This document shows, piece by piece, positions 1,880 through 63,581 of a stretch of 64,000 nt of DNA; position 1 is the first letter of the stretch, and each line of letters starts with the position of its first letter. The notes under the pieces are model-generated. The model was not told the DNA's origin. It was given only the letters and a program-made list of their open reading frames with translations, and ran no database searches. The stretch comes from an uncultured Eubacteriales bacterium (lineage in GTDB: Bacteria > Acidobacteriota > Aminicenantia > Aminicenantales > Aminicenantaceae): positions 20 through 64,019 of the forward strand of contig CAZEQD010000004.1 in NCBI GenBank assembly GCA_964514305.1. The letters are read 5' to 3'. The position numbers and the translations under genes are program-made.

Positions 1880-3175
1880 ATGGCTTTATTTAAGAAAGAA
1901 AAGAAGAAAAAAGTCTGCGTTATAGGCTTGGACGGTGTCCCTCATTCCCTCCTCCTTGATTTAAGCCGAAAAGGCATTATGCCTTTTGTTTCCACCCTTT
2001 TAGAGAAAGGGCATCTCCACAAGATGAAGGCCAGCCTTCCGGAAATTTCAGCCGTCAGTTGGACCAATTTCATGACCGGTAGCAATCCTGCTACTCATGG
2101 AATTTTCGGTTTTACTGATTTAAAAAAAGGCAGCTATGAACTTCGTTTCCCCAATTTTCTTGACCTCAAGAAAACCACTTTTTGGGATGAACTTGGTCAA
2201 AAAAAGAAAAAATGCATTATCATCAACCAACCTTCAACCTATCCAGCCCGAAAAATAAACGGAAAATTGATCTCTGGCTTTGTAGCCATAGAATTGGCTA
2301 AAGCAGTTTACCCTCTTTCTCTCAAATTTCATTTAGAAAAAATGGGGTATCAAATTGATGTCGACACCTTTAAAGCCAGAAATGACCACAACCTCCTCTG
2401 GTCAGAGCTAACAGCTACCCTCCAAAGCAGGCTCCAAGCTTTTTCTTGGTTATGGCCCGAAGATTGGGATTATTTTGAACTAGTAATCACCGGCACAGAT
2501 AGACTCCAACATTTCTTGTGGAACGCTTATGAAGATTCAAATCATCCTTTTCATCAAAAATTTTTAGACTACTATCACCGGATAGATCAAGTCATAAAAA
2601 AAGTTGTTACTTCCTTCAGAAAATTTTCTCCAGAGGATAAAGGCCTCTACCTTCTCTCAGATCACGGCTTTACGGCTATTAACCAGGAGGTCTATCTCAA
2701 TGCCTGGCTTGAAAAAGAAGGTTATTTGAAATTCAAAACCGATTCTCCTCAAAATCTCAATGAGATCCATCAGGAAAGTCAAGCTTTTGTTCTTGACCCT
2801 AACCGTCTTTATCTAAATCTAAAACACAAGTTTCCTCTGGGCAGAGTTGAGGAAGCTGAAAAGGAAGCTTTAAAAAGTGAAATCAGAGATAAATTGGAAA
2901 AATTGGAATATAAAGGCCAAAAAGTGATAAGAAAAGTATTGGATACCCAAGATATCTACTCTGGCCCTTATTTAGCTCATGGTCCAGACCTTATTATTCT
3001 TTCTAAATATGGTTTTGACATCAAAGGCTCAATCAAGAAAAAAGATATCTTTAGCCGTTCCAATCTCCAGGGTATGCACACCTGGGACGACGCTTTCTTC
3101 TGGGCCGATAAAAAGATGGCTGAAGATATATCTATTTCAGATTTAGCCTCAATAATTATGGATAATTTTAGCTAA
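1880..3175 (+). CDS. AlkP-superfamily type I phosphodiesterase/nucleotide pyrophosphatase-like protein (no signal peptide)
   Basis: 'VCVIGLDG', 'SAVSWTNFMTGSNPATHGIFGF' (NPP-like nucleophile/metal block), 'LSDHGF'. Paralogous to the next two genes. Confidence 0.65.
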   Translation: MALFKKEKKKKVCVIGLDGVPHSLLLDLSRKGIMPFVSTLLEKGHLHKMKASLPEISAVSWTNFMTGSNPATHGIFGFTDLKKGSYELRFPNFLDLKKTTFWDELGQKKKKCIIINQPSTYPARKINGKLISGFVAIELAKAVYPLSLKFHLEKMGYQIDVDTFKARNDHNLLWSELTATLQSRLQAFSWLWPEDWDYFELVITGTDRLQHFLWNAYEDSNHPFHQKFLDYYHRIDQVIKKVVTSFRKFSPEDKGLYLLSDHGFTAINQEVYLNAWLEKEGYLKFKTDSPQNLNEIHQESQAFVLDPNRLYLNLKHKFPLGRVEEAEKEALKSEIRDKLEKLEYKGQKVIRKVLDTQDIYSGPYLAHGPDLIILSKYGFDIKGSIKKKDIFSRSNLQGMHTWDDAFFWADKKMAEDISISDLASIIMDNFS

Positions 3176-3203
3176 GAGGACTATAATAATTATAAATTAA
3201 AAA

Positions 3204-5309
3204 ATGAAGAAATATGTAAAATTAAAGATATTCTTTTTCCTAATTCTTCTTTCGCCAATAGGTCTTTACGCTTATATTGGGCCTGGGGCAGGTTTTGCTT
3301 TTCTTTCTTCTTTCCTTGTTCTCTTTCTTACTTTTTTTCTAGCAGTATTTTCAATTCTTTCTTGGCCATTCCGGCTTCTCTTGAGGCTAATAAAAGGACA
3401 GAGAGCTTTTAAAAAAAGCCTCATTAACAAATTAGTCATTGTCGGCTTAGATGGCTTGGAGCCAAAACTTGCAGAAAAATTTATGTCAGAAGGAAAATTG
3501 CCCCATTTTTCCCAGCTCAAAAAAAATGGCTCATATGCCCGCCTGAAAACAACAACTCCAGCCATTTCGCCTGTAGCCTGGTCCTCTTTTATGACGGGCT
3601 GCCATCCGGCCAAACATAATATTTTTGATTTCCTCAGCCGAGATCCTAAAACTTATCTTCCTGATCTTTCCTCTGCTAGAATCGTAAGCCCTAAAAGATT
3701 TTTATCCTTAGGAAAATATAATATTCCTCTTTCTAAGCCAGAAATAAAGGGGTTGCGAAAAAGCATACCTTTTTGGAAAATATTAGGAGACAACGGAATT
3801 TTCAGCACAATCTTAAGGGTACCTATTACTTTTCCTCCAGAAAAATTCTCTGGGCATCTCCTCTCGGGAATGTGCGCTCCTGATTTAAAAGGAAGCCAGG
3901 GCACTTTTTTCTATTATACATCTAACCAAGAAAAAATAAGAGAACGAGAAGGAGGTATTAACATTCCAGTGACCGTGAACAGCCATAAAATAGAAACTTA
4001 TATTTCCGGTCCCGAAAATACTCTTCTCAAAAAAAAGGAAGAAATCCACCTGCCCCTAACCATTACTCTCGATTATGACCAAGAAGAAGCTTTAATTGAG
4101 GTCTCAGAGCAAAAATTCAAGCTGAAAATGAAAGAATTCTCCCCCTGGATTAAATTAACTTTTCGCCCCGGATTAGGAATGAAAATCAGGGCCATCTGCC
4201 GTTTTTTTATCTCTCAGATAAAACCTCATTTCGAGATGTATATCACTCCTCTTAATATTGATCCAGAAAAACCAGCTTTACCCATTTCTCATCCCTTCAT
4301 TTATTCCGTTTATCTAGCTAAACTTTTAGGAAGTTTTATAACCTTAGGCGAAGCCAATGATACTTGGGCTCTAAATGAAGGGGTACTCAGTGAACAGGCT
4401 TTTTTAGAGTTTACTTACTCGAATCATAAAGAATGGGAAGAAATGTTTTTTAATGCTCTCAACAAAACCAAAAAAGGGGTAGTGGCCTGTGTCTTTGAAA
4501 CAACTGACAGTATACAGCATATGTTCTTCCGGTATTTAGACAAAAAACATCCCGCTCTTCAGAGCAGCCAAGCTACATTAAGTGAGAAGGTAATTGAAGA
4601 ATTATATCTGCGAATGGATGAATTTATCGGCAGAGTTCAAGAAAAAATTGATAATAAAAGTATCTTAATTATAATGTCTGATCACGGCTTTAAATCATTC
4701 CGGCGGGGAGTTAACCTTAATTCATGGCTCTATCTTAACGGCTATCTCAGCTTAAAAGATAATAAAACAGAAAGTGGCGAATGGTTTAGAGATGTAGATT
4801 GGTCAAAGACAAAAGCTTACGGCCTCGGTTTAGCGGGAATATACATAAATCAAAAAGGGAGAGAAGCCCAGGGGATAGTTGAGCCCGGTCTTCAAACCAA
4901 AGATTTGAAAAGAGAGCTTATCCATAAATTAAATAATCTCAAAGATGAAGAGCAAGACTCTATAGCTATAACTCACGTTTATGACAAAGATAACCTTCCT
5001 TCTGGCCCCTATAAAGATAATTGTCCAGATCTTATTGTTGGCTATAATGAAGGCTATAGGGTATCCTGGGATTCAGTAACTGGAAAAGTAAATTCGGTTA
5101 TTTTTGAAGACAACGCTAAAGCCTGGAGCGGCGACCACTGTATCGACCCTGAGCTTGTACCCGGAGTCTTTTTCTGTAATCAGAAGATAAAAACCAACTC
5201 CCCTGCTATCATTGATATTGCCCCGACTGTACTTGAGCTATTCGGTCTCCAACCTCCTTCCCATATGGACGGTCATTCTTTAATCGAAACTAAAAATTTA
5301 TTTAAATAA
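3204..5309 (+). CDS. AlkP-superfamily type I phosphodiesterase/nucleotide pyrophosphatase-like protein, N-terminal membrane anchor
   Basis: Two N-terminal TM helices, then 'VIVGLDGLEP', 'SPVAWSSFMTGCHPAKHNIFDF', 'MSDHGF', 'SGDHC'. A large insertion relative to paralog 1. Confidence 0.65.
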   Translation: MKKYVKLKIFFFLILLSPIGLYAYIGPGAGFAFLSSFLVLFLTFFLAVFSILSWPFRLLLRLIKGQRAFKKSLINKLVIVGLDGLEPKLAEKFMSEGKLPHFSQLKKNGSYARLKTTTPAISPVAWSSFMTGCHPAKHNIFDFLSRDPKTYLPDLSSARIVSPKRFLSLGKYNIPLSKPEIKGLRKSIPFWKILGDNGIFSTILRVPITFPPEKFSGHLLSGMCAPDLKGSQGTFFYYTSNQEKIREREGGINIPVTVNSHKIETYISGPENTLLKKKEEIHLPLTITLDYDQEEALIEVSEQKFKLKMKEFSPWIKLTFRPGLGMKIRAICRFFISQIKPHFEMYITPLNIDPEKPALPISHPFIYSVYLAKLLGSFITLGEANDTWALNEGVLSEQAFLEFTYSNHKEWEEMFFNALNKTKKGVVACVFETTDSIQHMFFRYLDKKHPALQSSQATLSEKVIEELYLRMDEFIGRVQEKIDNKSILIIMSDHGFKSFRRGVNLNSWLYLNGYLSLKDNKTESGEWFRDVDWSKTKAYGLGLAGIYINQKGREAQGIVEPGLQTKDLKRELIHKLNNLKDEEQDSIAITHVYDKDNLPSGPYKDNCPDLIVGYNEGYRVSWDSVTGKVNSVIFEDNAKAWSGDHCIDPELVPGVFFCNQKIKTNSPAIIDIAPTVLELFGLQPPSHMDGHSLIETKNLFK

Positions 5310-5341
5310 AGAATAGCTCACAAAGAAAACGGAGAATTGAA

Positions 5342-7324
5342 ATGACTATAAATCGGAGAGAATTTATTAAATTAGGACTAACAGCGGGCTCTTTGGTAGC
5401 TCTCGGTCAAAGTTCAAGCCTTTTAACTAAAAACCTAGGCAAAAAAGCTACTCAAAAAAAAGTAATTATTCTTGGTCTTGATGGAATGGACCCTCATCTT
5501 CTCACTGTTTGGATGAAACAAGGAAAGCTTCCCCATTTCCAGCAGCTCTGGAGTCAGGGAGATTTTCGGCCATTAAGAACAAGCATCCCCCCTCATAGTC
5601 CTGTAGCCTGGGCTAACTTTATTACAGGCACCAATCCAGGAGGACATGCTATTTTTGATTTCATTCATAGAGACCCTAATAATTATATCCCTATATTTTC
5701 TACTTCAAAAACAGAAGAAGCTAAAAAAACAATTTCCATAGGTGATTTTGTCCTTCCTCTTTCTGGAGGAAAGGTTAAGCTGCTCCGCCAGGGTAAAGCT
5801 TTCTGGCAAATCTTAGAAGATTATGATATTCCTGCCACCGTTTTTAAGATTCCATCCAACTATCCACCGGCGCCTACCGAACAAAGAACTCTCTCTGGCA
5901 TAGGAACTCCTGATATCCTTGGAACTTATGGAATTTTCAATTACTACACCACTGAATCCAAAGAATTAAATCAAGACATTGGCGGAGGCCGTATCCATGA
6001 AGTTTATGTTATAGGCAACAGAGTTGAAGCCAAGCTGCCAGGACCTGTTAATACCTTTAAAAAAGAAAGGCCAGAATCATATATTGATTTTAAAGTCTTT
6101 ATTGATCCTCAATATCCTGTTGCCAAGATTTCTATTCAAGATAACGAATTCATCCTCAATGAAGGAGAATGGAGCGGCTGGAAAAGAGTTCATTTCACCA
6201 TGATTCCGACTCAAAGCGTGAGCGGCATTTGTATGTTTTACTTGAAAGAAGTTCGACCTGAATTCAAGCTCTACATTACTCCCATTAACATTGATCCTGG
6301 ACATCCAGCTCTTCCCATCTCAACTCCCAAAAGTTATGCTGAAGAGCTAGAAAAGGAATTTGGTCCCTTCTTCACTAAAGGCCTGCCAGCAGACACTTCT
6401 GCTCTCGACAATAATGTCTTAGATGACGGCGAATTTCTCCAGTTAGATGATTTTATCCTGCAAGAAAGACATAAAATATTTGATTACGAGCTGGAGAGGT
6501 TTGATTCGGGTCTTCTCTTTTATTACGTCTCCAGTACCGATCAGCGGCAGCACATGTTCTGGCGGCTGATTGATAAAAATCATCCATCGTATGATTCTCT
6601 CTTGGCCTCTAAATATGGCCAAACTATCGAGAATATCTATATCGATATGGATAACCTACTAGCTAAGGCCATGAAAAAGGTGGACAAGGATACTATATTG
6701 ATGGTTATGTCTGATCATGGATTTGCCCCTTTTCATCGAGGATTTCATTTGAATACCTGGCTTAAAGAATACGGCTACCTGAAACTCATTAACGAACGGA
6801 AACAGGGACAAGAGTCTTTCTTCCTCAACACTGACTGGTCAAGGACGAGGGCTTATGCTATTGGCCTTAATGGTCTTTATATTAATCAAAGAGGGAGAGA
6901 GGCAGAAGGAATAGTCTCCCCTGGAGCAGAAAAAGAAGTTTTGGTCAGAGAAATTGCTCATAAACTGGAAAAATTTAAGGATCCAAAGACAGGAGAAAAA
7001 GTAATTCTTCACGCTTATGTAGCCAAGGATGTTTACAGCGGACCTTATGTGGATGAAGCTCCGGATATAATCCCTGGCTATAATAGCGGTTACAGGGTCT
7101 CCTGGGCCTCCCCTCTTGGCCGAATACCCAAATCTATAATGGAAGATAATACCGAAAAATGGAGTGGGGATCACTGTATGGCTCCTGATGTCATTCCTGG
7201 CATCCTGCTTATGAATCGAAAAATAAAAGTTTCATTTCCAGCTCTTTATGATGTAACAGCTACTATTTTGAAAATTTTTAATATTAAAAAACCAAAAGAA
7301 ATGATCGGCCAAACAATTATATAG
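5342..7324 (+). CDS. AlkP-superfamily type I phosphodiesterase/nucleotide pyrophosphatase-like protein, Tat-exported
   Basis: Twin-arginine signal 'MTINRREFIKLGLTAGSLVALG'. 'ILGLDGMDP', 'SPVAWANFITGTNPGGHAIFDF', 'MSDHGF', 'SGDHC'. Confidence 0.7.
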   Translation: MTINRREFIKLGLTAGSLVALGQSSSLLTKNLGKKATQKKVIILGLDGMDPHLLTVWMKQGKLPHFQQLWSQGDFRPLRTSIPPHSPVAWANFITGTNPGGHAIFDFIHRDPNNYIPIFSTSKTEEAKKTISIGDFVLPLSGGKVKLLRQGKAFWQILEDYDIPATVFKIPSNYPPAPTEQRTLSGIGTPDILGTYGIFNYYTTESKELNQDIGGGRIHEVYVIGNRVEAKLPGPVNTFKKERPESYIDFKVFIDPQYPVAKISIQDNEFILNEGEWSGWKRVHFTMIPTQSVSGICMFYLKEVRPEFKLYITPINIDPGHPALPISTPKSYAEELEKEFGPFFTKGLPADTSALDNNVLDDGEFLQLDDFILQERHKIFDYELERFDSGLLFYYVSSTDQRQHMFWRLIDKNHPSYDSLLASKYGQTIENIYIDMDNLLAKAMKKVDKDTILMVMSDHGFAPFHRGFHLNTWLKEYGYLKLINERKQGQESFFLNTDWSRTRAYAIGLNGLYINQRGREAEGIVSPGAEKEVLVREIAHKLEKFKDPKTGEKVILHAYVAKDVYSGPYVDEAPDIIPGYNSGYRVSWASPLGRIPKSIMEDNTEKWSGDHCMAPDVIPGILLMNRKIKVSFPALYDVTATILKIFNIKKPKEMIGQTII

Positions 7325-15099: not shown

Positions 15100-15912
15100 T
15101 TAATCTTCTAAAATATATTCTTTAATAGAAAATATCAAACAGGCCAATCCCAAAAAAATAACTGTAAGGAGGAAAAGAGTAGTTACCGCTACCAAAGGCG
15201 GAGTAGGCTCCAAGCGAAAAAGAAGAAAAGAAAATCTGCCTCCTGTTGGCACATGAAGAAGGGACTTGAGATAATGAACGATAGCCAACCTTTGAGTTGA
15301 TCCCGGAAAATATTGAATTACATTTTCCCAGCCAAAGCTAAAAATCAAGCCAAAAAGGATGGACTTTTTTAAAAATGTCCCAATAAAAGTAAAGAGAGCC
15401 GAATAACAAATCAATCCTATGAGGAGAACCCCCATATATTTTAATAAAATTTTGTATAAGGCAAGCTCATCAAGGTAATCAACATTTAAAATTAAAAACG
15501 AGAGAACCAGTCCAACCACAGTCATTAAAACAACTAGAAAGGTATAAGCCATATATTTGCTCAAAATAATTGCTGATTTGGAGATGGGTCTGGTCGTCAA
15601 GTAAGTAATAGTTTTGCCTTCTATCTCTTCCGAACAGACCGAAGTCCCAAAAAATAAAGCCAGAATAAGAATAAGAAATTGAAGATAAAAAACCATAATC
15701 ATACTGGAAAAAACAGAAATGCCCTCAATATGGCTTCTCCCTGAAGAAAGATGAATGAATTTTATGGCCAAAGACATAAGGACCGGAAGAAAGCTTATTA
15801 CATAAAAGACTCTTGTCTTGCGTGATCTTCGACCGACAAAAAAGAAAAAAGAAAAAAGACTCCCCAGAGAATTAAAAAACAAAGATTGGCTTCTACCTTT
15901 TCCTTTGCTCAT
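15100..15912 (-). CDS. ABC-2 family transporter permease
   Basis: Six TM helices. 'SEEIEGKTITYLTTRPISK' ABC-2 permease motif. Confidence 0.6.
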   Translation of the reverse strand: MSKGKGRSQSLFFNSLGSLFSFFFFVGRRSRKTRVFYVISFLPVLMSLAIKFIHLSSGRSHIEGISVFSSMIMVFYLQFLILILALFFGTSVCSEEIEGKTITYLTTRPISKSAIILSKYMAYTFLVVLMTVVGLVLSFLILNVDYLDELALYKILLKYMGVLLIGLICYSALFTFIGTFLKKSILFGLIFSFGWENVIQYFPGSTQRLAIVHYLKSLLHVPTGGRFSFLLFRLEPTPPLVAVTTLFLLTVIFLGLACLIFSIKEYILED

Positions 15913-15915
15913 TTT

Positions 15916-16842
15916 CTATTTTCCTACCAGATAATCAAAAACAGCCTGAAGATTATCATCAGGAGAAGTAATTTCCTTAATTTCGATATTCTCTTTCAAA
16001 AATAAAGAAGGAAGAAGACTGAAGAGCTTATCTCTATTGTTAGTTTCAACCAGAAGAGAATCTGGACTTTGGCCAAAATTGATCTTTAAGACATAATCTT
16101 GGTCGATAATTCTGGAGGCCAGCAAACGGGGTTGATTACATTTGATAGAAATTATATGGGGATGAGTATCTATTAAATCACGGATGTAATGGATATCACC
16201 TTGAGCAAAAATTTTGCCTTGATGAATAAGAATAATTTTTTTGGTCATAGCTTCAATTTCAGGTAGAACGTGGCTGGAAACAATGACTGTTTTCCCTTCT
16301 TTGGCATATGATTTTATGAGTTTGATAATCTTCCTTCGGCCTAATGGATCCAAGCCATTAAGAGGCTCGTCAAGAATCATGATTTGGGGTTGATGGCCAA
16401 TAGCCTGGGCTAACTTTAACCTTTGCCGCATTCCCCGGCTATAGGATCTGATGACTCTATTTTTATCCTCTACTAATTCTACAATTTCTAAAGTTTCTTC
16501 AGCTTTTCTTTCTGCTTCTGTCTTTGAAAATTGTTGAAGTCTAAGCATGAAAATCAAAAATTCCCGTCCAGTCAATTCTTCATAAAAAGAATCTTGCTCT
16601 GGGCAATAACCAATTTTTGAGAAAAGAGAATAATTATTCCTAACCTTTTGACCCTCAATAATAACCTGACCTATATTGGCTTTTATTTGCCCTGTTATTA
16701 ATTTTAGAAAAGTGGATTTGCCGGCGCCGTTGGGCCCTAATAATCCTGTAATGCCTGGCTCAACTTTAAGAGAAACATCACTTAAACCAAGAACATTACC
16801 ATACCATTTAGAAAGATGGCGAGTTTCAATTACCGGCTTCAT
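15916..16842 (-). CDS. ABC transporter ATP-binding protein
   Basis: Walker A 'GLLGPNGAGKST', signature 'YSRGMRQRL', Walker B 'ILDEP'. Confidence 0.85.
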   Translation of the reverse strand: MKPVIETRHLSKWYGNVLGLSDVSLKVEPGITGLLGPNGAGKSTFLKLITGQIKANIGQVIIEGQKVRNNYSLFSKIGYCPEQDSFYEELTGREFLIFMLRLQQFSKTEAERKAEETLEIVELVEDKNRVIRSYSRGMRQRLKLAQAIGHQPQIMILDEPLNGLDPLGRRKIIKLIKSYAKEGKTVIVSSHVLPEIEAMTKKIILIHQGKIFAQGDIHYIRDLIDTHPHIISIKCNQPRLLASRIIDQDYVLKINFGQSPDSLLVETNNRDKLFSLLPSLFLKENIEIKEITSPDDNLQAVFDYLVGK

Positions 16843-17708
16843 TTTATAATTTCCACCTCTTTAATTCGCTTCTTTAAGATATATCCGGCCAAAACAGTTA
16901 ATAGGATTAAAATCAAGAAAGAATATAGCCAAGAAAAATTATAGGGAGTTTTCTGGATAAAAAGAAATGAGCCTACTTGCTGTAAATTGCATTTTAAAGA
17001 AAGAAGAGCAAAATAAGGATTTTTAAAAATTCCATAAAAAATACCAAACAATATATCTGAAAAGATATAAACACCAAAAATAAAAATAGCCACATATCTT
17101 CTATTCTTACTCAAAGCAGAAAGAGATAAGGTATAAACAGCAAAAAATCCAGTCACAAAAAATGAGTAGCCTATAATAGCCAAAGGAAGCCAAGGATATT
17201 TGACTAAAAAACTAAAACTTCCAGAAAAAATAAGCTTCATAATCAAAAGGAAAAGACCTGGAATAAGGGTCAGAACAAAAAGAAAAAAAGCAATGACTGA
17301 CATTTTGCCCAAGAAGTAGTCACCTTTTCTGAGGGGACGAGAAAAATAAAGCTGCAATGAATTATATTTAAGGTCGTCTGAAATAAGTCCGGCTCCACAA
17401 AAGATTAAAATCATCACTATAATAAAAAGTAAAAGATCATTGGTAAAATAAGATTTGAAATAGAGAGGATTTATTTGAAGGAATTCAGCCTGGCCTTTAA
17501 TCATGAATTTAAAATCTTCTAACCTTTCAGATATATAAATCCCAGCTAAATAGACCAAGGTTGGAGTCAAGGAACCAAAGAATAATAATTTAAAAAATTT
17601 TTTTCTAAAAGTTAATTTTATCCCCCATTTAGTGATTGGCATCCATGGAAATTTATTTTCTCTTAACTTTCCCTGCCAATGGCTGTAACCCTTTTCCCGA
17701 ATGGTCAT
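16839..17708 (-). CDS. ABC-2 family transporter permease
   Basis: Six TM helices. 'DDLKYNSLQLYFSRPLRK' motif. Paralog of 15100-15912. Confidence 0.6.
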   Translation of the reverse strand: MTIREKGYSHWQGKLRENKFPWMPITKWGIKLTFRKKFFKLLFFGSLTPTLVYLAGIYISERLEDFKFMIKGQAEFLQINPLYFKSYFTNDLLLFIIVMILIFCGAGLISDDLKYNSLQLYFSRPLRKGDYFLGKMSVIAFFLFVLTLIPGLFLLIMKLIFSGSFSFLVKYPWLPLAIIGYSFFVTGFFAVYTLSLSALSKNRRYVAIFIFGVYIFSDILFGIFYGIFKNPYFALLSLKCNLQQVGSFLFIQKTPYNFSWLYSFLILILLTVLAGYILKKRIKEVEIIK

Positions 17709-18619
17709 TAATCTACTCCTACTGCTTTGGCGAAAAGATCCTCAAGTGATGTTTGACTTTTGATAAAGTGTCTAATCTGAATATTTTCCTCTGCTCCAAT
17801 TTTGAAGATTTCTTGAGAACTCTGGCCAGGGGGCATATAAACTTTTAATAAGCCATCTTCTGTTTCTTCGACTCGGCAGCCAATAGCTTTTAATCTCTGT
17901 AAGAAAATTTGTGTGTTTCCCTTAATCCTGATTTCAAAAAGATTGTATTTGATGGCTTTAAGTTCTTTCATCTCTCCTTGGGCAGCTACTTTACCTTTAT
18001 TTAGAATCACTACATAAGAGCAAGTAGCTTCGATATCAGCCAGAATATGAGAAGAAATTAAGACCTGTATTTCTTTTTTAGAAGAGATATCCTTAATCAG
18101 CTCCAGTATTTCTTGGCGTCCTTGAGGATCTAAACCACTGGTCGGTTCGTCCATAAAAATGAGCTGGGGATCATGGACAATGGCCTGGGCCAGTTTCAAC
18201 CTTTGCTTCATACCTCCTGAATAAGTCTCTACTAAGCGGTAACGGCTTTCTTCCAAGCCCACATAAAAAAGAACTTCATGAGCCCGTTTCATGGCTTCCT
18301 GATGGGGCATGCCTGAAAGCTCACCAAGATAGGAAGTAAAAGAAACAGCATCCATCCCTGGAAGATAACAATCATCCTCAGGTAAATAACCAACAAGCCG
18401 GCGGATCATTGACTGTTGCCTTTTTATATTATAGCCGAGTACTGTCCCCTCCCCTTTTTCCACTGGAAGAAAGCCCAGCAATATTCTCAAAAGAGTGCTT
18501 TTTCCAGCTCCATTGGGCCCTAAAAGTCCCACAGCTCCTGGGGGCAAACTGAGGTCTATCCCGGCCAGAGCTCTAATGCGGCCGTAGTTAAAATAAAGAT
18601 TCTTGACTTCGACACTCAT
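17708..18619 (-). CDS. ABC transporter ATP-binding protein
   Basis: 'GLLGPNGAGKST', 'YSGGMKQRL', 'MDEPTSGLD'. Paralog of 15916-16842. Confidence 0.85.
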   Translation of the reverse strand: MSVEVKNLYFNYGRIRALAGIDLSLPPGAVGLLGPNGAGKSTLLRILLGFLPVEKGEGTVLGYNIKRQQSMIRRLVGYLPEDDCYLPGMDAVSFTSYLGELSGMPHQEAMKRAHEVLFYVGLEESRYRLVETYSGGMKQRLKLAQAIVHDPQLIFMDEPTSGLDPQGRQEILELIKDISSKKEIQVLISSHILADIEATCSYVVILNKGKVAAQGEMKELKAIKYNLFEIRIKGNTQIFLQRLKAIGCRVEETEDGLLKVYMPPGQSSQEIFKIGAEENIQIRHFIKSQTSLEDLFAKAVGVD

Positions 18620-18683: not shown

Positions 18684-20276
18684 CTAAAAATCTTTAACAG
18701 GAACTTTCTTTCCCTCTCCGAGAACCAGGGCCCTGTAGGCTTTTTCTACTCTATCCCAGTTTTCTTCCCTGTCCAAAGCCCAGAATCTACCCATAACTGT
18801 CACCACTTGACCTACAGTCAATTCCCTGCACATCTGCTCCACTTTATTTACATAAACAGCTCCACTTTCCGGTTTTTCCCCTCTCCTTCCGATTAGAGCA
18901 TGAACAAACACTTTATTGATCCCTATCTGTTGGGCAAGCCTCAGGAGTTGATAGAGATGCTTTATAGTTCCATGAGAACTGTAATGGGAAACAATACCTA
19001 AAAGATGAAGGGACTTTTTCTCTTTTTTAGCTCCTTCCATAGCCCACAAAAAAGCAGTATTCTGAAAAAAAAGGCCATCTTCAATGGCTTTATCTATTCT
19101 TACTCTATCCAAAAAAACTCGCCTTCCCGCCCCAAGGTGAAGATGTCCTGCTTCAGAATTACCAACCGTATGAGCTGGCATCCCCACTGCTTCTCCTGAA
19201 GCTTGAAGCTGACAGTGAGGAAATTCTGACCATAGCTTATCAAAGTAAGGAGTTCTGGCAACATAAAGAAGATTGCCAGGCCCTTTCTCTTTTAACCCCC
19301 AGCCATCGAGGATAAGGAGGACAACCCGTCGCTGGGTATGAGCTTCTTCCTGAGAATTAAGAAGAAGAGTTTTTCCAGTTATTTCAGATGGTTGATTTAA
19401 ATTAAGAAGATTGATAATAGTAGGGGTAACATCGGCCAGCTCTCCCCTTTCCTTTAACAACCATTTTTTAGATCCAAAATTAGCATAATCAGCTAAAATA
19501 AAAGGCACAGGATTTTTTGTATGACCAGTATTGATAGAACCATCTTCATAAAACCATTCCTCAACGGTACCATGATCTGAAGTAACAATTAAAGTCACTC
19601 CTTCTTGGCGGCAGGCCTCAATAACTTTTCCCAGTTGGAAGTCAACTGTTTCCACTGCTTTAAGGACGGCCTGTCTATCTCCGGTATGGCCGACTACATC
19701 TACATTGGCAAAATTGGCTATTATTAATGAATAAGAAGGATCTTTTATTTTTAAAGATAAGGAGACGGCTACTTCTTTGGCACTCATTTCAGGCTGGAGA
19801 TTATAGGTAGGTATTCCAGAAGGTGAATCAATGATTATTCTTTCTTCACCCGGAAAAATTTTATTATTTTTGCCATTCATAAAAAATCCAACGTGAACTG
19901 CCTTTTCAGACTCAGCGATTTTCAGAACTTTTAGGCCACTTTTAGTTACCACCTCAGTTAAAGTATTCTTAATTTCTCCAGGGGAAGGGAAAGCTACCTT
20001 GGCCTTAAGAGAGGGATGATACTCGATCATTGTCACAAACCTGAGATCCAAGTCAGGAACAACTGGAAAATGTTTAAAATTTCTCTCAGTTAAGGCTCTG
20101 GTCAACTCAATTTCCCTCTCACCTCTAATGTCGTAAAAAATAACAGAATCTCCCTTTTTTATCCTACCTAAGGGATGATTATTTTTATCCACCGCTACTA
20201 TTGGGTCTAAGTTTTCGTCTTCTTCACCTGCTTGATAGGCGCTTTTAATGGCTTTAACCAACGATGAATTAATCAC
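18684..20276 (-). CDS. gpmI: 2,3-bisphosphoglycerate-independent phosphoglycerate mutase, apparently circularly permuted
   Basis: All iPGM motifs are present but reordered. The C-terminal phosphatase-half motifs (HVGFFMNGK, NLQPEMS, VDVVGHTGD, TSDHGT, HTKNPVPF) come first. They are followed by LILDGWG, GNSEAGHLHLGAGR, RRGEKPES, LDREENWDRVEKAY. Confidence 0.8.
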   Translation of the reverse strand: MINSSLVKAIKSAYQAGEEDENLDPIVAVDKNNHPLGRIKKGDSVIFYDIRGEREIELTRALTERNFKHFPVVPDLDLRFVTMIEYHPSLKAKVAFPSPGEIKNTLTEVVTKSGLKVLKIAESEKAVHVGFFMNGKNNKIFPGEERIIIDSPSGIPTYNLQPEMSAKEVAVSLSLKIKDPSYSLIIANFANVDVVGHTGDRQAVLKAVETVDFQLGKVIEACRQEGVTLIVTSDHGTVEEWFYEDGSINTGHTKNPVPFILADYANFGSKKWLLKERGELADVTPTIINLLNLNQPSEITGKTLLLNSQEEAHTQRRVVLLILDGWGLKEKGPGNLLYVARTPYFDKLWSEFPHCQLQASGEAVGMPAHTVGNSEAGHLHLGAGRRVFLDRVRIDKAIEDGLFFQNTAFLWAMEGAKKEKKSLHLLGIVSHYSSHGTIKHLYQLLRLAQQIGINKVFVHALIGRRGEKPESGAVYVNKVEQMCRELTVGQVVTVMGRFWALDREENWDRVEKAYRALVLGEGKKVPVKDF

Positions 20277-20405
20277 ATTTATCTCCTTATCCTTCTAATA
20301 TCAGGCCTATACTATAGAAATGAAGATAAAGGTTGTCAACTTACTCAGGGCAAAATTAGACAATGGCAACTTCCTTTTTTCTTGGATATCCAATAATTAA
20401 AGGAT

Positions 20406-21293
20406 TTATCTGAAACTTAATAGAGCTGAGGGATCTACTCTGCTTCCAAAAATTTTTACCCCCCAATGGAGATGAGGACCGGTTACCCGGCCAGTAGCAC
20501 CTACTTCTCCAATAGTTTCTCCTTTTCTTACTTGTTGCCCTCTTTTTACTCTGATTTTTGAAAAATGACAGTAAATAGTAAAAACTCCTAAACCATGATT
20601 AATGATGACTGTCTTTCCGGAAAAATATAATTCTGCGGCCAAAACCACCTGTCCTGAGTTTGAAGCCCTGACGGGCGTTCCAGCAGAAGCAGCTATATCC
20701 AAGCCACTATGGGAGGATCGAGGTTGATTGTTATATACTCTTCTCTCGCCGAATTGAGCGGTTATTCTGCCAGAGACAGGCATGATAAAGGCTCCATCGC
20801 TCCACCATTGGGAACTAAACATAGAATATATGGTTTTTAGAATTTCTGCTTCTCTTTTTATCCTTTGCCTCACCTCTGGTGGAGGAGTTACATATTTTTG
20901 CTCAACCCATAATTTAATTAACGGGAATTGTTTAGGAGAGATAACGATTTTTCGCTCAAACATTTGCCACAATCCATTTTTATCCTCCAAGAAAATTTTA
21001 ATAGGATATTCTCCCGGCTGAAGAGAAAGATCTAATCCTATAAAAGCCATTAGCTTTAATCCTTGACTGTCTTTACCCATTCTGTATTCTTTTCCTAAAA
21101 ATATAACCTTGGCCGCTTCTATCCCCTGTTGCTTTTCAATCTTTAAAGCAATAACCTCTCCTGGCTGAAGAGTTCTATAGCTAACGCCAACGGCTATTCC
21201 AGAAGGGCTAAGCCACTTTTCACTCTGAAAAGAAAAAAGACAACTCTGACTAAAAAGAAAAAAGACAAAAAATATAAAAGTTAATTTTCTCAT
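20406..21293 (-). CDS. Secreted M23 family peptidase
   Basis: Signal peptide. 'HSGLDIAASAGTPV' and 'HLHWGV' M23 metal-binding blocks. Confidence 0.75.
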   Translation of the reverse strand: MRKLTFIFFVFFLFSQSCLFSFQSEKWLSPSGIAVGVSYRTLQPGEVIALKIEKQQGIEAAKVIFLGKEYRMGKDSQGLKLMAFIGLDLSLQPGEYPIKIFLEDKNGLWQMFERKIVISPKQFPLIKLWVEQKYVTPPPEVRQRIKREAEILKTIYSMFSSQWWSDGAFIMPVSGRITAQFGERRVYNNQPRSSHSGLDIAASAGTPVRASNSGQVVLAAELYFSGKTVIINHGLGVFTIYCHFSKIRVKRGQQVRKGETIGEVGATGRVTGPHLHWGVKIFGSRVDPSALLSFR

Positions 21294-63156: not shown

Positions 63157-63506
63157 GAAAAATCATTTAAACTTTTTTTATTATTTAGCTTAATTAACTT
63201 TTTATAAATTTCTTTTTTTATATCTTATCCTCTGCTTCTAGATTGAATAGAGCTACATGGAGAGAGAGACTTTGATTGAATTTATATCAAATATTTAATT
63301 TATATCAAATATTTTATTAAATTATATATTTAAGTAAAAAATAGATCACATCATAATCACTCCAATTAAGAAAAGAAAATATAGTTAACAAACTTTCTTC
63401 CTTTCGAGCTAGCAATAATTCTCAAGAATTGAAGATAATTTGCTATCAAAAATAACTTCGCAAAAAAGAAATGGCTAAAATATCCATTTAAACATATATA
63501 AGAAGT

Positions 63507-63581
63507 GCGCCTGACAGGACTCGAACCTGCGACACAGGGATTAGGAATCCCTTGCTCTATCCATACTGAGCTACAGGCGCA
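63507..63581 (-). tRNA. tRNA-Arg (anticodon CCU)
   Basis: A 75-nt cloverleaf: 7-bp acceptor GCGCCUG/CAGGCGC, D-arm GCUC-AGUAUGGAUA-GAGC, anticodon arm AGGGA-UUCCUAA-UCCCU, T-arm GCAGG-UUCGAGU-CCUGU, discriminator A. CCA is not encoded. Confidence 0.85.

What the first reader, a model, noticed from the sequence alone, without database searches (positions are those of the whole stretch)
18684..20276. Cofactor-independent phosphoglycerate mutase appears circularly permuted
The 530-aa ORF contains every hallmark of GpmI, but the two halves are swapped. Residues 1 to ~305 align with roughly residue 225 to the C-terminus of canonical iPGM. They carry DLRFVTMIEY, HVGFFMNGK, NLQPEMSAKE, NVDVVGHTGD, VTSDHGT, HTKNPVPF and ITGKTLLL. 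A short linker (NSQEEAHTQRR) then runs into the canonical N-terminus: LILDGWG, the Ser-nucleophile block GNSEAGHLHLGAGR, SHYSSHG, RRGEKPES and LDREENWDRVEKAY. The ORF ends about where it began in the canonical numbering, so this is a clean permutation with no duplicated segment. No flanking gene fragments suggest an unresolved tandem duplicate. In the known iPGM fold the N- and C-termini both sit in the phosphatase domain, so a permuted yet functional enzyme is structurally plausible. The only glycolytic mutase in the window may therefore have non-canonical topology.
Basis: partly seen in the sequence, partly recalled or inferred. Interest (0 to 1): 0.8.

Follow-up and report, generated by a model that had tools for sequence, protein, structure and literature searches.

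The report
Naturally circularly permuted phosphoglycerate mutase
This gene encodes a cofactor-independent phosphoglycerate mutase whose two sequence halves are swapped; the swap is real, is conserved in hundreds of Aminicenantes species and other bacteria, seems to have arisen more than once at the same surface loop, and comes with a remodelled substrate pocket, so its exact reaction still needs testing.

Summary
ORF 18684..20276 (-), 530 aa, aligns to Bacillus stearothermophilus iPGM (1EJJ) in swapped order: residues 8-306 match canonical 218-510 and residues 315-523 match canonical 3-211, joined by a 10-residue linker. Nothing is duplicated and there are no flanking fragments.

It is not an assembly artefact. 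All 120 closest database relatives share the same order, as do the best 80 of 399 matching species-representative genomes (mostly Aminicenantes), including closed chromosomes. An AlphaFold2 model is confident (pLDDT 85.5) and matches iPGM structures over about half the chain, as expected for rewired connectivity.

All metal ligands, the Ser nucleophile and the Arg/Lys/His substrate contacts are invariant. However, the gene belongs to a strongly supported permuted clade ("SSHG" type) in which the 97%-conserved Asp154 and several neighbouring pocket residues are replaced.

Other permuted lineages keep canonical motifs and group with canonical-order enzymes, which suggests repeated permutation at one loop. 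Outside Aminicenantes, SSHG-type genes sit in a conserved HAD / ApgM / PRK-like kinase operon or in ABC importer operons.

So the topology is settled, but PGM activity is only the most likely function. I found no prior description in the searchable literature. I class it as a new variant of a known kind.

The parts
18684..20276 (-). Complete gene for the circularly permuted iPGM-family enzyme (530 aa, GTG start, TAG stop at 18684-18686).
   Evidence: ORF listing; two-stretch swapped alignment to 1EJJ; TIGR01307 at 499 bits.
19992..20276 (-). Residues 1-95: second part of the phosphotransferase domain (canonical ~218-310), now at the N-terminus. It carries Arg51 and Arg54 (canonical Arg261 and Arg264).
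   Evidence: Alignments. Pfam Metalloenzyme begins at residue 96.
19359..19991 (-). Residues 96-306: C-terminal part of the phosphatase (alkaline-phosphatase-like) domain (canonical ~311-510). It carries Lys125, Asp193, His197, Asp234, His235 and His252.
   Evidence: Pfam Metalloenzyme 96-294 matches profile positions 62-251. These residues are invariant in 120 of 120 relatives.
19329..19358 (-). Residues 307-316 (NSQEEAHTQR): linker that joins the ancestral C-terminus to the ancestral N-terminus.
   Evidence: The only stretch with pLDDT below 50 is 312-315. Residues 306-315 form the highest-entropy stretch in the clade, yet length is fixed at 10 residues in 119 of 120.
19107..19328 (-). Residues 317-390: N-terminal part of the phosphatase domain (canonical ~5-77), with Asp324 (canonical Asp12), Ser374 (nucleophile, canonical Ser62) and His378.
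18687..19106 (-). Residues 391-530: first part of the phosphotransferase domain (canonical ~78-211) plus a short variable tail, now at the C-terminus. It carries His435, Arg465, Arg497 and Arg503.
   Evidence: Pfam iPGM_N 394-524 matches profile positions 1-131.
18969..18983 (-). Residues 432-436 (YSSHG): clade-specific replacement of the canonical GGVHS. His435 (canonical His123) is kept.
   Evidence: Invariant in 120 of 120 relatives. SSHG is shared by the whole permuted clade.
18876..18890 (-). Residues 463-467 (GRRGE): replaces the canonical DGRDV. Arg465 (canonical Arg153) is kept and Asp154 becomes Gly466.
   Evidence: Invariant in 120 of 120 relatives. Asp154 is 97% conserved in 136 canonical representatives.
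20283..20288 (-). Shine-Dalgarno-like AAGGAG, 6 nt upstream of the GTG start.
   Evidence: Read directly from the sequence.
20311..20339 (-). Sigma-70-type promoter-like site, TTGACA-17 nt-TATAGT.
   Evidence: Best hit of the scan, 11 of 12 matches. This is a consensus match only.
15100..18619 (-). Four downstream genes on the same strand: two DrrA/GldA-like ABC ATPases, each followed by a membrane-protein gene that matched no family model. Their position is conserved, but no functional link is shown.
   Evidence: Found immediately downstream in 68-76 of 80 Aminicenantes species genomes. Family assignment.

Best explanation
This is an intact, expressed and selectively maintained gene for a circularly permuted member of the cofactor-independent phosphoglycerate mutase (iPGM) family.

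A canonical iPGM is a phosphatase domain with the phosphotransferase domain inserted into it (A1-B-A2). Here the chain starts in the middle of the transferase domain (canonical ~218) and runs through the second hinge into the phosphatase domain. It crosses a 10-residue linker that joins the old C- and N-termini, finishes the phosphatase domain, and passes the first hinge. It ends with the first half of the transferase domain (B2-A2-linker-A1-B1). The phosphatase domain is now the contiguous, inserted one. Both hinge peptides and the two-domain fold are kept.

The enzyme should therefore work as iPGMs do. The domains close on a phospho-acid, the phosphate is transferred to Ser374 at the two-metal site, the bound acid is reoriented on the Arg-rich transferase domain, and the phosphate is returned. 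In Aminicenantes the most likely reaction is still 3-phosphoglycerate to 2-phosphoglycerate and back, but this step is inferred, not shown.

The permutation most likely arose by tandem duplication, in-frame fusion and trimming of both ends (inferred). It appears to have happened at least twice, at the same surface loop.

Sub-claim confidences: real permuted gene, 0.97; catalytically competent metal- and phosphoserine-dependent enzyme, 0.85; PGM is its physiological reaction, about 0.55-0.6.
For: Swapped two-block alignment to 1EJJ and family HMMs matched in two stretches. The same order occurs in 120 of 120 closest clusters, in the best 80 of 399 matching species genomes including closed chromosomes, and in independent assemblies of the same gene.

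Asp12, Ser62, His66, His123, Arg153, Arg185, Arg191, Arg261, Arg264, Lys336, Asp403, His407, Asp444, His445 and His462 are invariant in 120 of 120.

The linker and the new termini are the most variable parts, with linker length fixed. The AF2 model has pLDDT 85.5 and pTM 0.86, with only the linker at low confidence.

The gene has its own promoter-like site and SD. The canonical two-hinge, two-domain architecture is described in PMC5382265.

A permuted lineage with fully canonical motifs (P0121) overlaps the stop of a pgi gene by 4 nt, so the permuted topology occurs in a glycolytic operon context.

Recurrence: the SSHG clade is supported in 147 of 150 bootstraps, all permuted sequences are monophyletic in 0 of 150, and the P0121 group nests with canonical sequences in 130 of 150.
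Against: Asp154 is 97% conserved in canonical iPGMs but is Gly here. V122S, M189L, N259D, D263E and N447T also differ, all at positions at least 85% conserved in canonical enzymes. The glycerate pocket is therefore not canonical.

The stricter NCBIfam equivalog NF003897 is not reached (402 bits against a cutoff of 862), and NCBI names relatives 'alkaline phosphatase family protein' or 'hypothetical protein'.

Sister SSHG-type genes lie in operons with an ApgM-type PGM, HAD hydrolases and a PRK-like kinase, or with ABC importers and RpiR/LacI regulators. That pattern suits a specialised substrate.

The Aminicenantes neighbourhood (M23 peptidase, ABC-2 exporter) says nothing about glycolysis. 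I could not scan a whole Aminicenantes genome for other PGMs. No activity data exist. The trees are bootstrapped NJ only.
Confidence: 0.6

Rival explanations
1. The gene is a real, active permuted iPGM-fold enzyme but no longer a phosphoglycerate mutase. On this view the SSHG-type clade, including this GRRGE-type gene, acts as a mutase, phosphotransferase or phosphatase on a different small phospho-acid or phospho-sugar acid.
For: The whole clade has lost Asp154, with co-changes at positions 122, 189, 259, 263 and 447. The DGRST subtype lies in a HAD-HAD-[permuted gene]-ApgM-PRK-like kinase operon in 47 of 75 loci. The ApgM there passes its equivalog cutoff (573 bits against 468), which would make a second PGM redundant. 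The DGRSS and DGRSA subtypes sit in ABC importer operons with RpiR or LysR regulators. NCBI's pipeline does not name these proteins as iPGM.
Against: All phosphate- and carboxylate-binding residues (His123, Arg153, Arg185, Arg191, Arg261, Arg264, Lys336) are invariant. Identity to canonical iPGM is 41-45% over both halves. The Aminicenantes branch has its own motif (GRRGE) and does not share the operon contexts: there is no ApgM, HAD or PRK-like gene in the window or in 0.9 Mb of Aminicenantes flanks. The gene is present in single copy at a fixed chromosomal position across Aminicenantes species genomes (the best 80 of 399 matches were examined), as expected for a housekeeping gene.
Confidence: 0.33
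2. Assembly artefact: a collapsed or mis-joined tandem gpmI duplication, or a chimeric contig, creates an apparent permutation.
For: None found.
Against: Identical topology and break point occur in 120 of 120 closest clusters from JGI, NCBI, ENA and Logan assemblies. They also occur in the best 80 species genomes, including four closed chromosomes, and in 80 further metagenome loci. The open reading frame runs through the junction, with proper start, stop, SD and promoter-like signals. There is no repeated DNA and no extra fragments.
Confidence: 0.01
3. Decaying or inactive relic: the permuted gene is a non-functional remnant of a duplication.
For: Loss of the highly conserved Asp154, and non-canonical motifs.
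Against: There are 15 catalytic or binding residues and more than 100 columns invariant across relatives that are only 63-82% identical overall. The clade-specific replacements are themselves invariant, which indicates purifying selection. Length is intact in the best 80 species-representative genomes. The predicted fold is confident.
Confidence: 0.02
4. Single ancient origin: all permuted iPGMs (the SSHG type plus the canonical-motif lineages P0121, P0127, P0128 and P0171) descend from one permutation event, and the tree fails to show this because the SSHG branch is long.
For: All 13 permuted lineages break within a few residues of the same loop and use a linker of similar length (6-11 residues in the alignment). 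P0128 and P0171 join the SSHG clade in 10-32% of bootstraps. NJ is prone to long-branch artefacts.
Against: All-permuted monophyly is 0 of 200 and 0 of 150. SSHG plus the P0121 group is monophyletic in 1 of 150, and the P0121 group nests with canonical-order sequences in 130 of 150. The canonical-motif lineages keep the canonical state at all 9 clade-diagnostic positions. P0121's nearest relatives outside its tiny clade are canonical-order at 47-53% identity.
Confidence: 0.2

Closest known systems
Canonical bacterial cofactor-independent phosphoglycerate mutase (GpmI/GpmM; TIGR01307; PDB 1EJJ, 1O98, 2IFY, 4MY4, 5KGL)
   Same: 41-45% identity over both halves. It has the same two domains (alkaline-phosphatase-like phosphatase domain and phosphotransferase domain) joined by two hinges. 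All metal ligands, the Ser nucleophile and the Arg/Lys/His substrate contacts are the same. The predicted fold is the same (PMC5382265).
   Different: Chain connectivity is circularly permuted: the new termini lie in the transferase-domain loop at canonical 212-217, and the old termini are fused by a 10-residue linker. Asp154 is lost, and GGVHS/DGRD are replaced by YSSHG/GRRG. There is a 6-residue insertion at residues 267-274.
Archaeal-type cofactor-independent PGM (ApgM; TIGR00306, PF10143)
   Same: Same alkaline-phosphatase-superfamily metal site. It is weakly detected by the query (35 bits). It is encoded next to sister SSHG-type permuted genes.
   Different: It has a different inserted cap domain (PhosphMutase, not iPGM_N), is about 400 aa, and is not permuted. 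The window protein is clearly of the iPGM_N type.
Phosphopentomutase (DeoB) and other alkaline-phosphatase-superfamily enzymes
   Different: Only the phosphatase core is shared. These enzymes have no iPGM_N transferase domain.
Other natural circular permutations of enzymes (for example, eukaryotic versus bacterial glutathione synthetase, cited in PMC2876114)
   Same: Same phenomenon: homologous fold, swapped sequence order, and old termini joined. Such proteins are often mis-annotated by colinear models.
   Different: Those are different families. Here the permutation inverts which domain is the inserted one in a nested two-domain enzyme, and it seems to recur at one loop.

Membership tests
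iPGM (GpmI/GpmM, TIGR01307) | Family HMM score above the curated cutoff | tested here: met
   TIGR01307 scores 499.3 bits against a cutoff of 330.65, as the sum of two stretches. The stricter NF003897 scores 402 bits against 862 and is not met.
iPGM (GpmI/GpmM, TIGR01307) | Two-metal site ligands (canonical Asp12, Ser62, Asp403, His407, Asp444, His445, His462) and the Ser nucleophile in a GNSE motif | tested here: met
   All are present (Asp324, Ser374, Asp193, His197, Asp234, His235, His252) and invariant in 120 of 120 relatives.
iPGM (GpmI/GpmM, TIGR01307) | Substrate-binding basic residues (canonical His123, Arg153, Arg185, Arg191, Arg261, Arg264, Lys336; residue list recalled from the 1EJJ literature) | tested here: met
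   All are conserved and invariant in 120 of 120.
iPGM (GpmI/GpmM, TIGR01307) | Asp154 of the DGRD motif (97% conserved in the 136 canonical representatives sampled here) | tested here: not met
   It is Gly466 here and the motif reads GRRGE. It is Ser or Gly across the SSHG clade.
iPGM (GpmI/GpmM, TIGR01307) | Colinear domain order: phosphatase-N, transferase, phosphatase-C | tested here: not met
   The order is transferase-C, phosphatase-C, linker, phosphatase-N, transferase-N.
iPGM (GpmI/GpmM, TIGR01307) | Two-domain iPGM three-dimensional fold | tested here: met
iPGM (GpmI/GpmM, TIGR01307) | Catalyses 3-phosphoglycerate to 2-phosphoglycerate interconversion without 2,3-BPG | not testable with these tools
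   This needs an enzyme assay or genetic complementation.
iPGM (GpmI/GpmM, TIGR01307) | Is the organism's glycolytic PGM (sole PGM, or in a glycolytic gene context) | tested here: inconclusive
   The window and the Aminicenantes flanks show an M23 peptidase and an ABC-2 exporter, and no glycolytic genes. No other PGM was found in the window. A whole genome could not be scanned.
ApgM (archaeal-type iPGM, TIGR00306) | PhosphMutase (PF10143) cap domain and family HMM above cutoff | tested here: not met
   TIGR00306 scores 35 bits against a cutoff of 320. Pfam finds iPGM_N, not PhosphMutase.

The most novel reading that the evidence does not exclude
The SSHG-type permuted clade, this gene included, may be a previously unrecognised enzyme family that has left glycolysis. 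On this reading it is a permuted iPGM-fold phosphomutase or phosphotransferase with a rebuilt hydroxy-acid pocket (Asp154 lost). In many bacteria it would work together with an ApgM-type mutase, two HAD hydrolases and an N-terminally extended PRK-like kinase, in an undescribed pathway for an imported phosphorylated or acidic sugar derivative. The Aminicenantes GRRGE branch would be a further specialisation. In addition, permutation at one loop of iPGM would have arisen independently several times, which would make it a natural model for how nested two-domain enzymes can invert their insertion topology.
Probability: 0.3. Interest if true: 0.75.

Novelty: new variant of a known kind. Interest (0 to 1): 0.62.

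Why it matters
- **Enzyme topology:** iPGM is a textbook glycolytic enzyme and a drug target in bacteria and parasites, and its nested two-domain topology has been treated as fixed. A large natural family with inverted nesting shows the fold tolerates rewiring at one specific loop. It also supplies ready-made sequences for protein-engineering and folding studies.
- **Annotation:** colinear equivalog models under-call these proteins. NCBI names many of them 'hypothetical' or 'alkaline phosphatase family', so metabolic reconstructions of Aminicenantes, Limnochordia and others may wrongly report glycolysis as complete or incomplete.
- **Function:** the permutation is coupled with the loss of a near-universal pocket residue, and sister genes sit in a conserved HAD/ApgM/kinase operon. 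This points to a testable, possibly new, phospho-acid pathway.

Tried and rejected
- **Evolutionary intermediates:** I looked for full or partial tandem duplicates among long or three-stretch representatives (P0184, P0157, P0170, P0213, P0134, P0125, P0151, P0187, P0224, P0245). All are canonical cores with unrelated extensions.
- **Organism names:** I tried to get names for the canonical-motif permuted lineages and for the query's own cluster. None are on record.
- **AFDB fold search:** the library was unavailable.
- **Aminicenantes metabolism paper:** Kadnikov 2019 (doi 10.1007/s00792-018-01073-5) is not held. PMC7509429 says nothing about PGM in Aminicenantes.
- **Literature probes:** searches for a prior description of permuted iPGM, or for the role of Asp154, found nothing relevant. 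The stated role of Asp154 as a glycerate-hydroxyl contact therefore rests on my memory of the 1EJJ papers plus its 97% conservation measured here.
- **Operon partners:** a search for ApgM, HAD or PRK-like partners in the window and in 0.9 Mb of Aminicenantes flanks found none.
- **Rejected explanations:** assembly artefact, pseudogene, and a fusion of fragments from two different genes.
Full report
**1. What is there**

Against PDB sequences it matches Bacillus stearothermophilus iPGM (1EJJ) in two blocks in swapped order. Query 8-306 equals canonical 218-510, and query 315-523 equals canonical 3-211.

Pfam finds Metalloenzyme and iPGM_N, each in two stretches. TIGR01307 scores 499 bits against a cutoff of 331, while the stricter NF003897 is not reached.

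tblastn of the two canonical halves against all 64 kb finds only these two segments, adjacent (20255-19359 and 19334-18711). There is no repeated DNA between 17 and 22 kb, and an in-frame stop lies six codons upstream of the GTG.

Upstream are a TTGACA-17-TATAGT promoter-like site and an AAGGAG 6 nt before the start.

The break point is canonical ~212-217 rather than ~225.

**2. It is not an artefact**

- The 120 best database relatives (63-82% identity; JGI, NCBI, ENA and Logan assemblies) each cover 98-100% of the query in one colinear alignment. All 120 are permuted with the same break point.
- A scan of one genome per GTDB species found 399 genomes with relatives. The best 80 are all full-length and colinear. 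Where the records name a lineage it is Aminicenantes or Acidobacteriota, and many carry only generic labels. They include Ca. Aminicenans sakinawicola and four closed chromosomes.
- The query's own 90% cluster has copies from independent assemblies on contigs up to 172 kb.
- The gene keeps a fixed chromosomal position. The same pair of ABC ATPase and membrane-protein genes follows it in 68-76 of 80 genomes, and an M23 peptidase gene lies upstream in 54.

**3. Anatomy**

| Residues | Segment | Canonical residues |
|---|---|---|
| 1-95 | Second part of the transferase domain | ~218-310 |
| 96-306 | C-terminal part of the phosphatase domain | ~311-510 |
| 307-316 | Linker | none |
| 317-390 | N-terminal part of the phosphatase domain | ~5-77 |
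| 391-530 | First part of the transferase domain | ~78-211 |

Domain limits come from the Pfam stretches and the alignment.

[quoted passage not shown] Here the order is B2-A2-linker-A1-B1. Both hinges are kept, but the phosphatase domain is now the contiguous, inserted one.

Within the clade, the most variable stretches are the new N-terminus, the linker (306-315), the new C-terminus and one loop (267-274). Linker length is fixed at 10 residues in 119 of 120 while its sequence is free.

The AlphaFold2 model (alignment A1) has mean pLDDT 85.5 and pTM 0.86, and its only stretch below 50 is residues 312-315.

**4. Active site**

All seven metal-site residues, including the Ser nucleophile, together with His66, His123, Arg153, Arg185, Arg191, Arg261, Arg264 and Lys336, are present and invariant in 120 of 120 relatives.

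The clade also carries invariant departures from the canonical motifs. GGVHS becomes YSSHG, and DGRD becomes GRRG, so Asp154 is lost.

Among 136 canonical-order representatives, Asp154 is 97% conserved. Eight other positions at least 85% conserved are also replaced across the wider permuted clade: 24, 64, 122, 189, 259, 263, 404 and 447.

The role of Asp154 as a contact to the glycerate hydroxyl is from my memory of the 1EJJ papers. I could not retrieve a source.

**5. How far the permutation extends**

An exhaustive HMMER search of 1.84 billion 50%-identity representatives found 14 permuted representatives among the top 150. All break within a few residues of the same loop and join the old termini with a variable spacer.

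Ten of them form one clade. Its bootstrap support is 199 of 200 with nine full-length representatives, and 147 of 150 with denser sampling. The clade is defined by SSHG, GNSEAGH, ALDR, RGERE and the loss of Asp154. Named members come from Aminicenantes, Ca. Desulfofervidus auxilii, a Pseudomonadota MAG and Limnochordia. NCBI often labels them 'hypothetical protein' or 'alkaline phosphatase family protein'.

Four other lineages (P0121, P0127, P0128, P0171) are permuted but keep all the canonical motifs. P0121's clade is tiny, and its next relatives are canonical-order enzymes at 47-53% identity.

In bootstrapped NJ trees, all permuted sequences are never monophyletic (0 of 200 and 0 of 150). 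SSHG plus the P0121 group is monophyletic in 1 of 150. The P0121 group nests among canonical sequences in 130 of 150. This favours at least two independent permutations at one loop. NJ is a weak method for a long branch, so I leave a single origin at about 0.2. No duplication intermediates were found.

**6. Function**

Evidence for a working PGM:
- The catalytic and binding residues are complete.
- The protein is 41-45% identical to canonical iPGM.
- It is a single-copy gene at a fixed position across Aminicenantes.
- The permuted topology occurs directly behind pgi, with a 4-nt overlap, in the canonical-motif P0121 lineage.

Evidence against:
- The pocket changes described above.
- The contexts of sister SSHG-type genes. 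In 75 metagenome loci, the DGRST subtype lies in a conserved arrangement of HAD-IA hydrolase (one or two copies), the permuted gene, ApgM (NF003160 equivalog, 573 bits against a cutoff of 468) and a PRK/uridine-kinase-family kinase. LacI or RpiR regulators and transporters are often nearby. This holds for 47 of 61 DGRST loci.
- The DGRSS and DGRSA subtypes mostly sit in ABC importer operons.

A second cofactor-independent PGM in the same operon makes a plain PGM role doubtful for those subtypes. The Aminicenantes branch has its own motif (GRRGE). It lacks these partners in the window and in 0.9 Mb of flanks, and its neighbourhood is uninformative.

The window is otherwise housekeeping DNA, with no other PGM among the 38 of its 51 ORFs of at least 150 aa that I scanned.

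I put PGM at about 0.55-0.6 and a diverged substrate at about 0.33.

**7. Comparison with what is known, and novelty**

The protein meets most defining features of iPGM: HMM score, metal site, nucleophile, basic substrate contacts and fold. It fails two: colinear order and Asp154. Activity is untestable here. It is not ApgM or DeoB.

Full-text searches for circular permutation together with iPGM, phosphoglycerate mutase or the alkaline phosphatase superfamily returned nothing relevant. The library lacks most subscription journals, so absence of a prior description is not proven.

I class it as a new variant of a known kind: a widespread, apparently recurrent, natural circular permutation of iPGM, coupled in its main clade to a remodelled pocket.

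**8. Verdict**

The topology is settled. The reaction catalysed, and the number of independent origins, remain open and are directly testable. Interest 0.62.

Noticed in passing
L094-L173 (e.g. L091 921-4949; L161; L124; L132; L138): There is a conserved operon around the DGRST-type permuted iPGM-like genes. One or two HAD-IA hydrolases (~247 aa, motif I 'DLGNTL') lie upstream. A bona fide ApgM (401 aa) and a PRK/uridine-kinase-family kinase (~398 aa, with a ~185-aa N-terminal extension) lie downstream. LacI or RpiR regulators and MFS or ABC transporters are often nearby. The pathway is unknown.
   Followed up: partly
L006 389-6817; L007 1-7044: In Ca. Desulfofervidus-like contigs, the permuted gene overlaps by 44 nt the end of a giant 2142-2401-aa ORF. 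That ORF has a PPDK_N (PEP-utilising, ATP-grasp) domain and faint P-loop-kinase hits.
   Followed up: no
L090 3299-8572; L096-L101: DGRSS-, DGRSA- and NRHG-type permuted genes are the last gene of, or adjacent to, an ABC importer of the SBP_bac_1/8 type. It has a fused ~550-620-aa permease and an ATPase with a TOBE domain, with LysR or RpiR regulators. This suggests uptake of an organophosphate or acid substrate.
   Followed up: partly
window 15100-18619 (-) and 20406-21293 (-): In Aminicenantes the permuted gene has tightly conserved neighbours. Two DrrA/GldA-like ABC ATPases, each followed by a membrane-protein gene with no family match, lie downstream (68-76 of 80 species), and a Pgp3-like M23 peptidoglycan peptidase lies upstream (54 of 80). 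The reason for this linkage is unknown.
   Followed up: partly
window 1880-7324 (+): There are three tandem paralogous genes of the type I phosphodiesterase / nucleotide pyrophosphatase family (Pfam Phosphodiest; 431, 701 and 660 aa). They are also alkaline-phosphatase-superfamily members, and an HD-domain protein gene (5-1369) precedes them.
   Followed up: no
P0171 (5027 aa, Logan contig of 15.6 kb), residues ~3855-4374: A permuted, canonical-motif iPGM segment is embedded in a 5027-aa predicted protein. This may be a gene-calling fusion or a real giant multidomain protein.
   Followed up: no
P0170 (683 aa, canonical order): This canonical-order iPGM homologue lacks Arg153 and Arg191 (motifs LDGVDS and AMEHR) but shares GNSEAGH and RGER with the permuted clade. 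The NJ tree places it next to that clade. It may be a divergent paralogue or a long-branch artefact.
   Followed up: no
window 19455-19478 (-), residues 267-274: This is a clade-variable surface loop with a 6-residue insertion relative to 1EJJ ('ADYANFGSKKWLL' against 'VTK------KGIKL'). It is the only highly variable internal stretch besides the linker.
   Followed up: no
Database annotation of relatives (P0005, P0054, P0103, P0115, P0276, P0299-P0304): Naming is inconsistent. JGI calls these proteins iPGM. NCBI calls many of them 'alkaline phosphatase family protein' or 'hypothetical protein'. Pathway reconstructions for these lineages may therefore differ by pipeline.
   Followed up: partly
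window 63505-63580 (-): tRNA-Arg(CCT) is the only RNA gene detected in the window by ARAGORN and by Rfam.
   Followed up: yes
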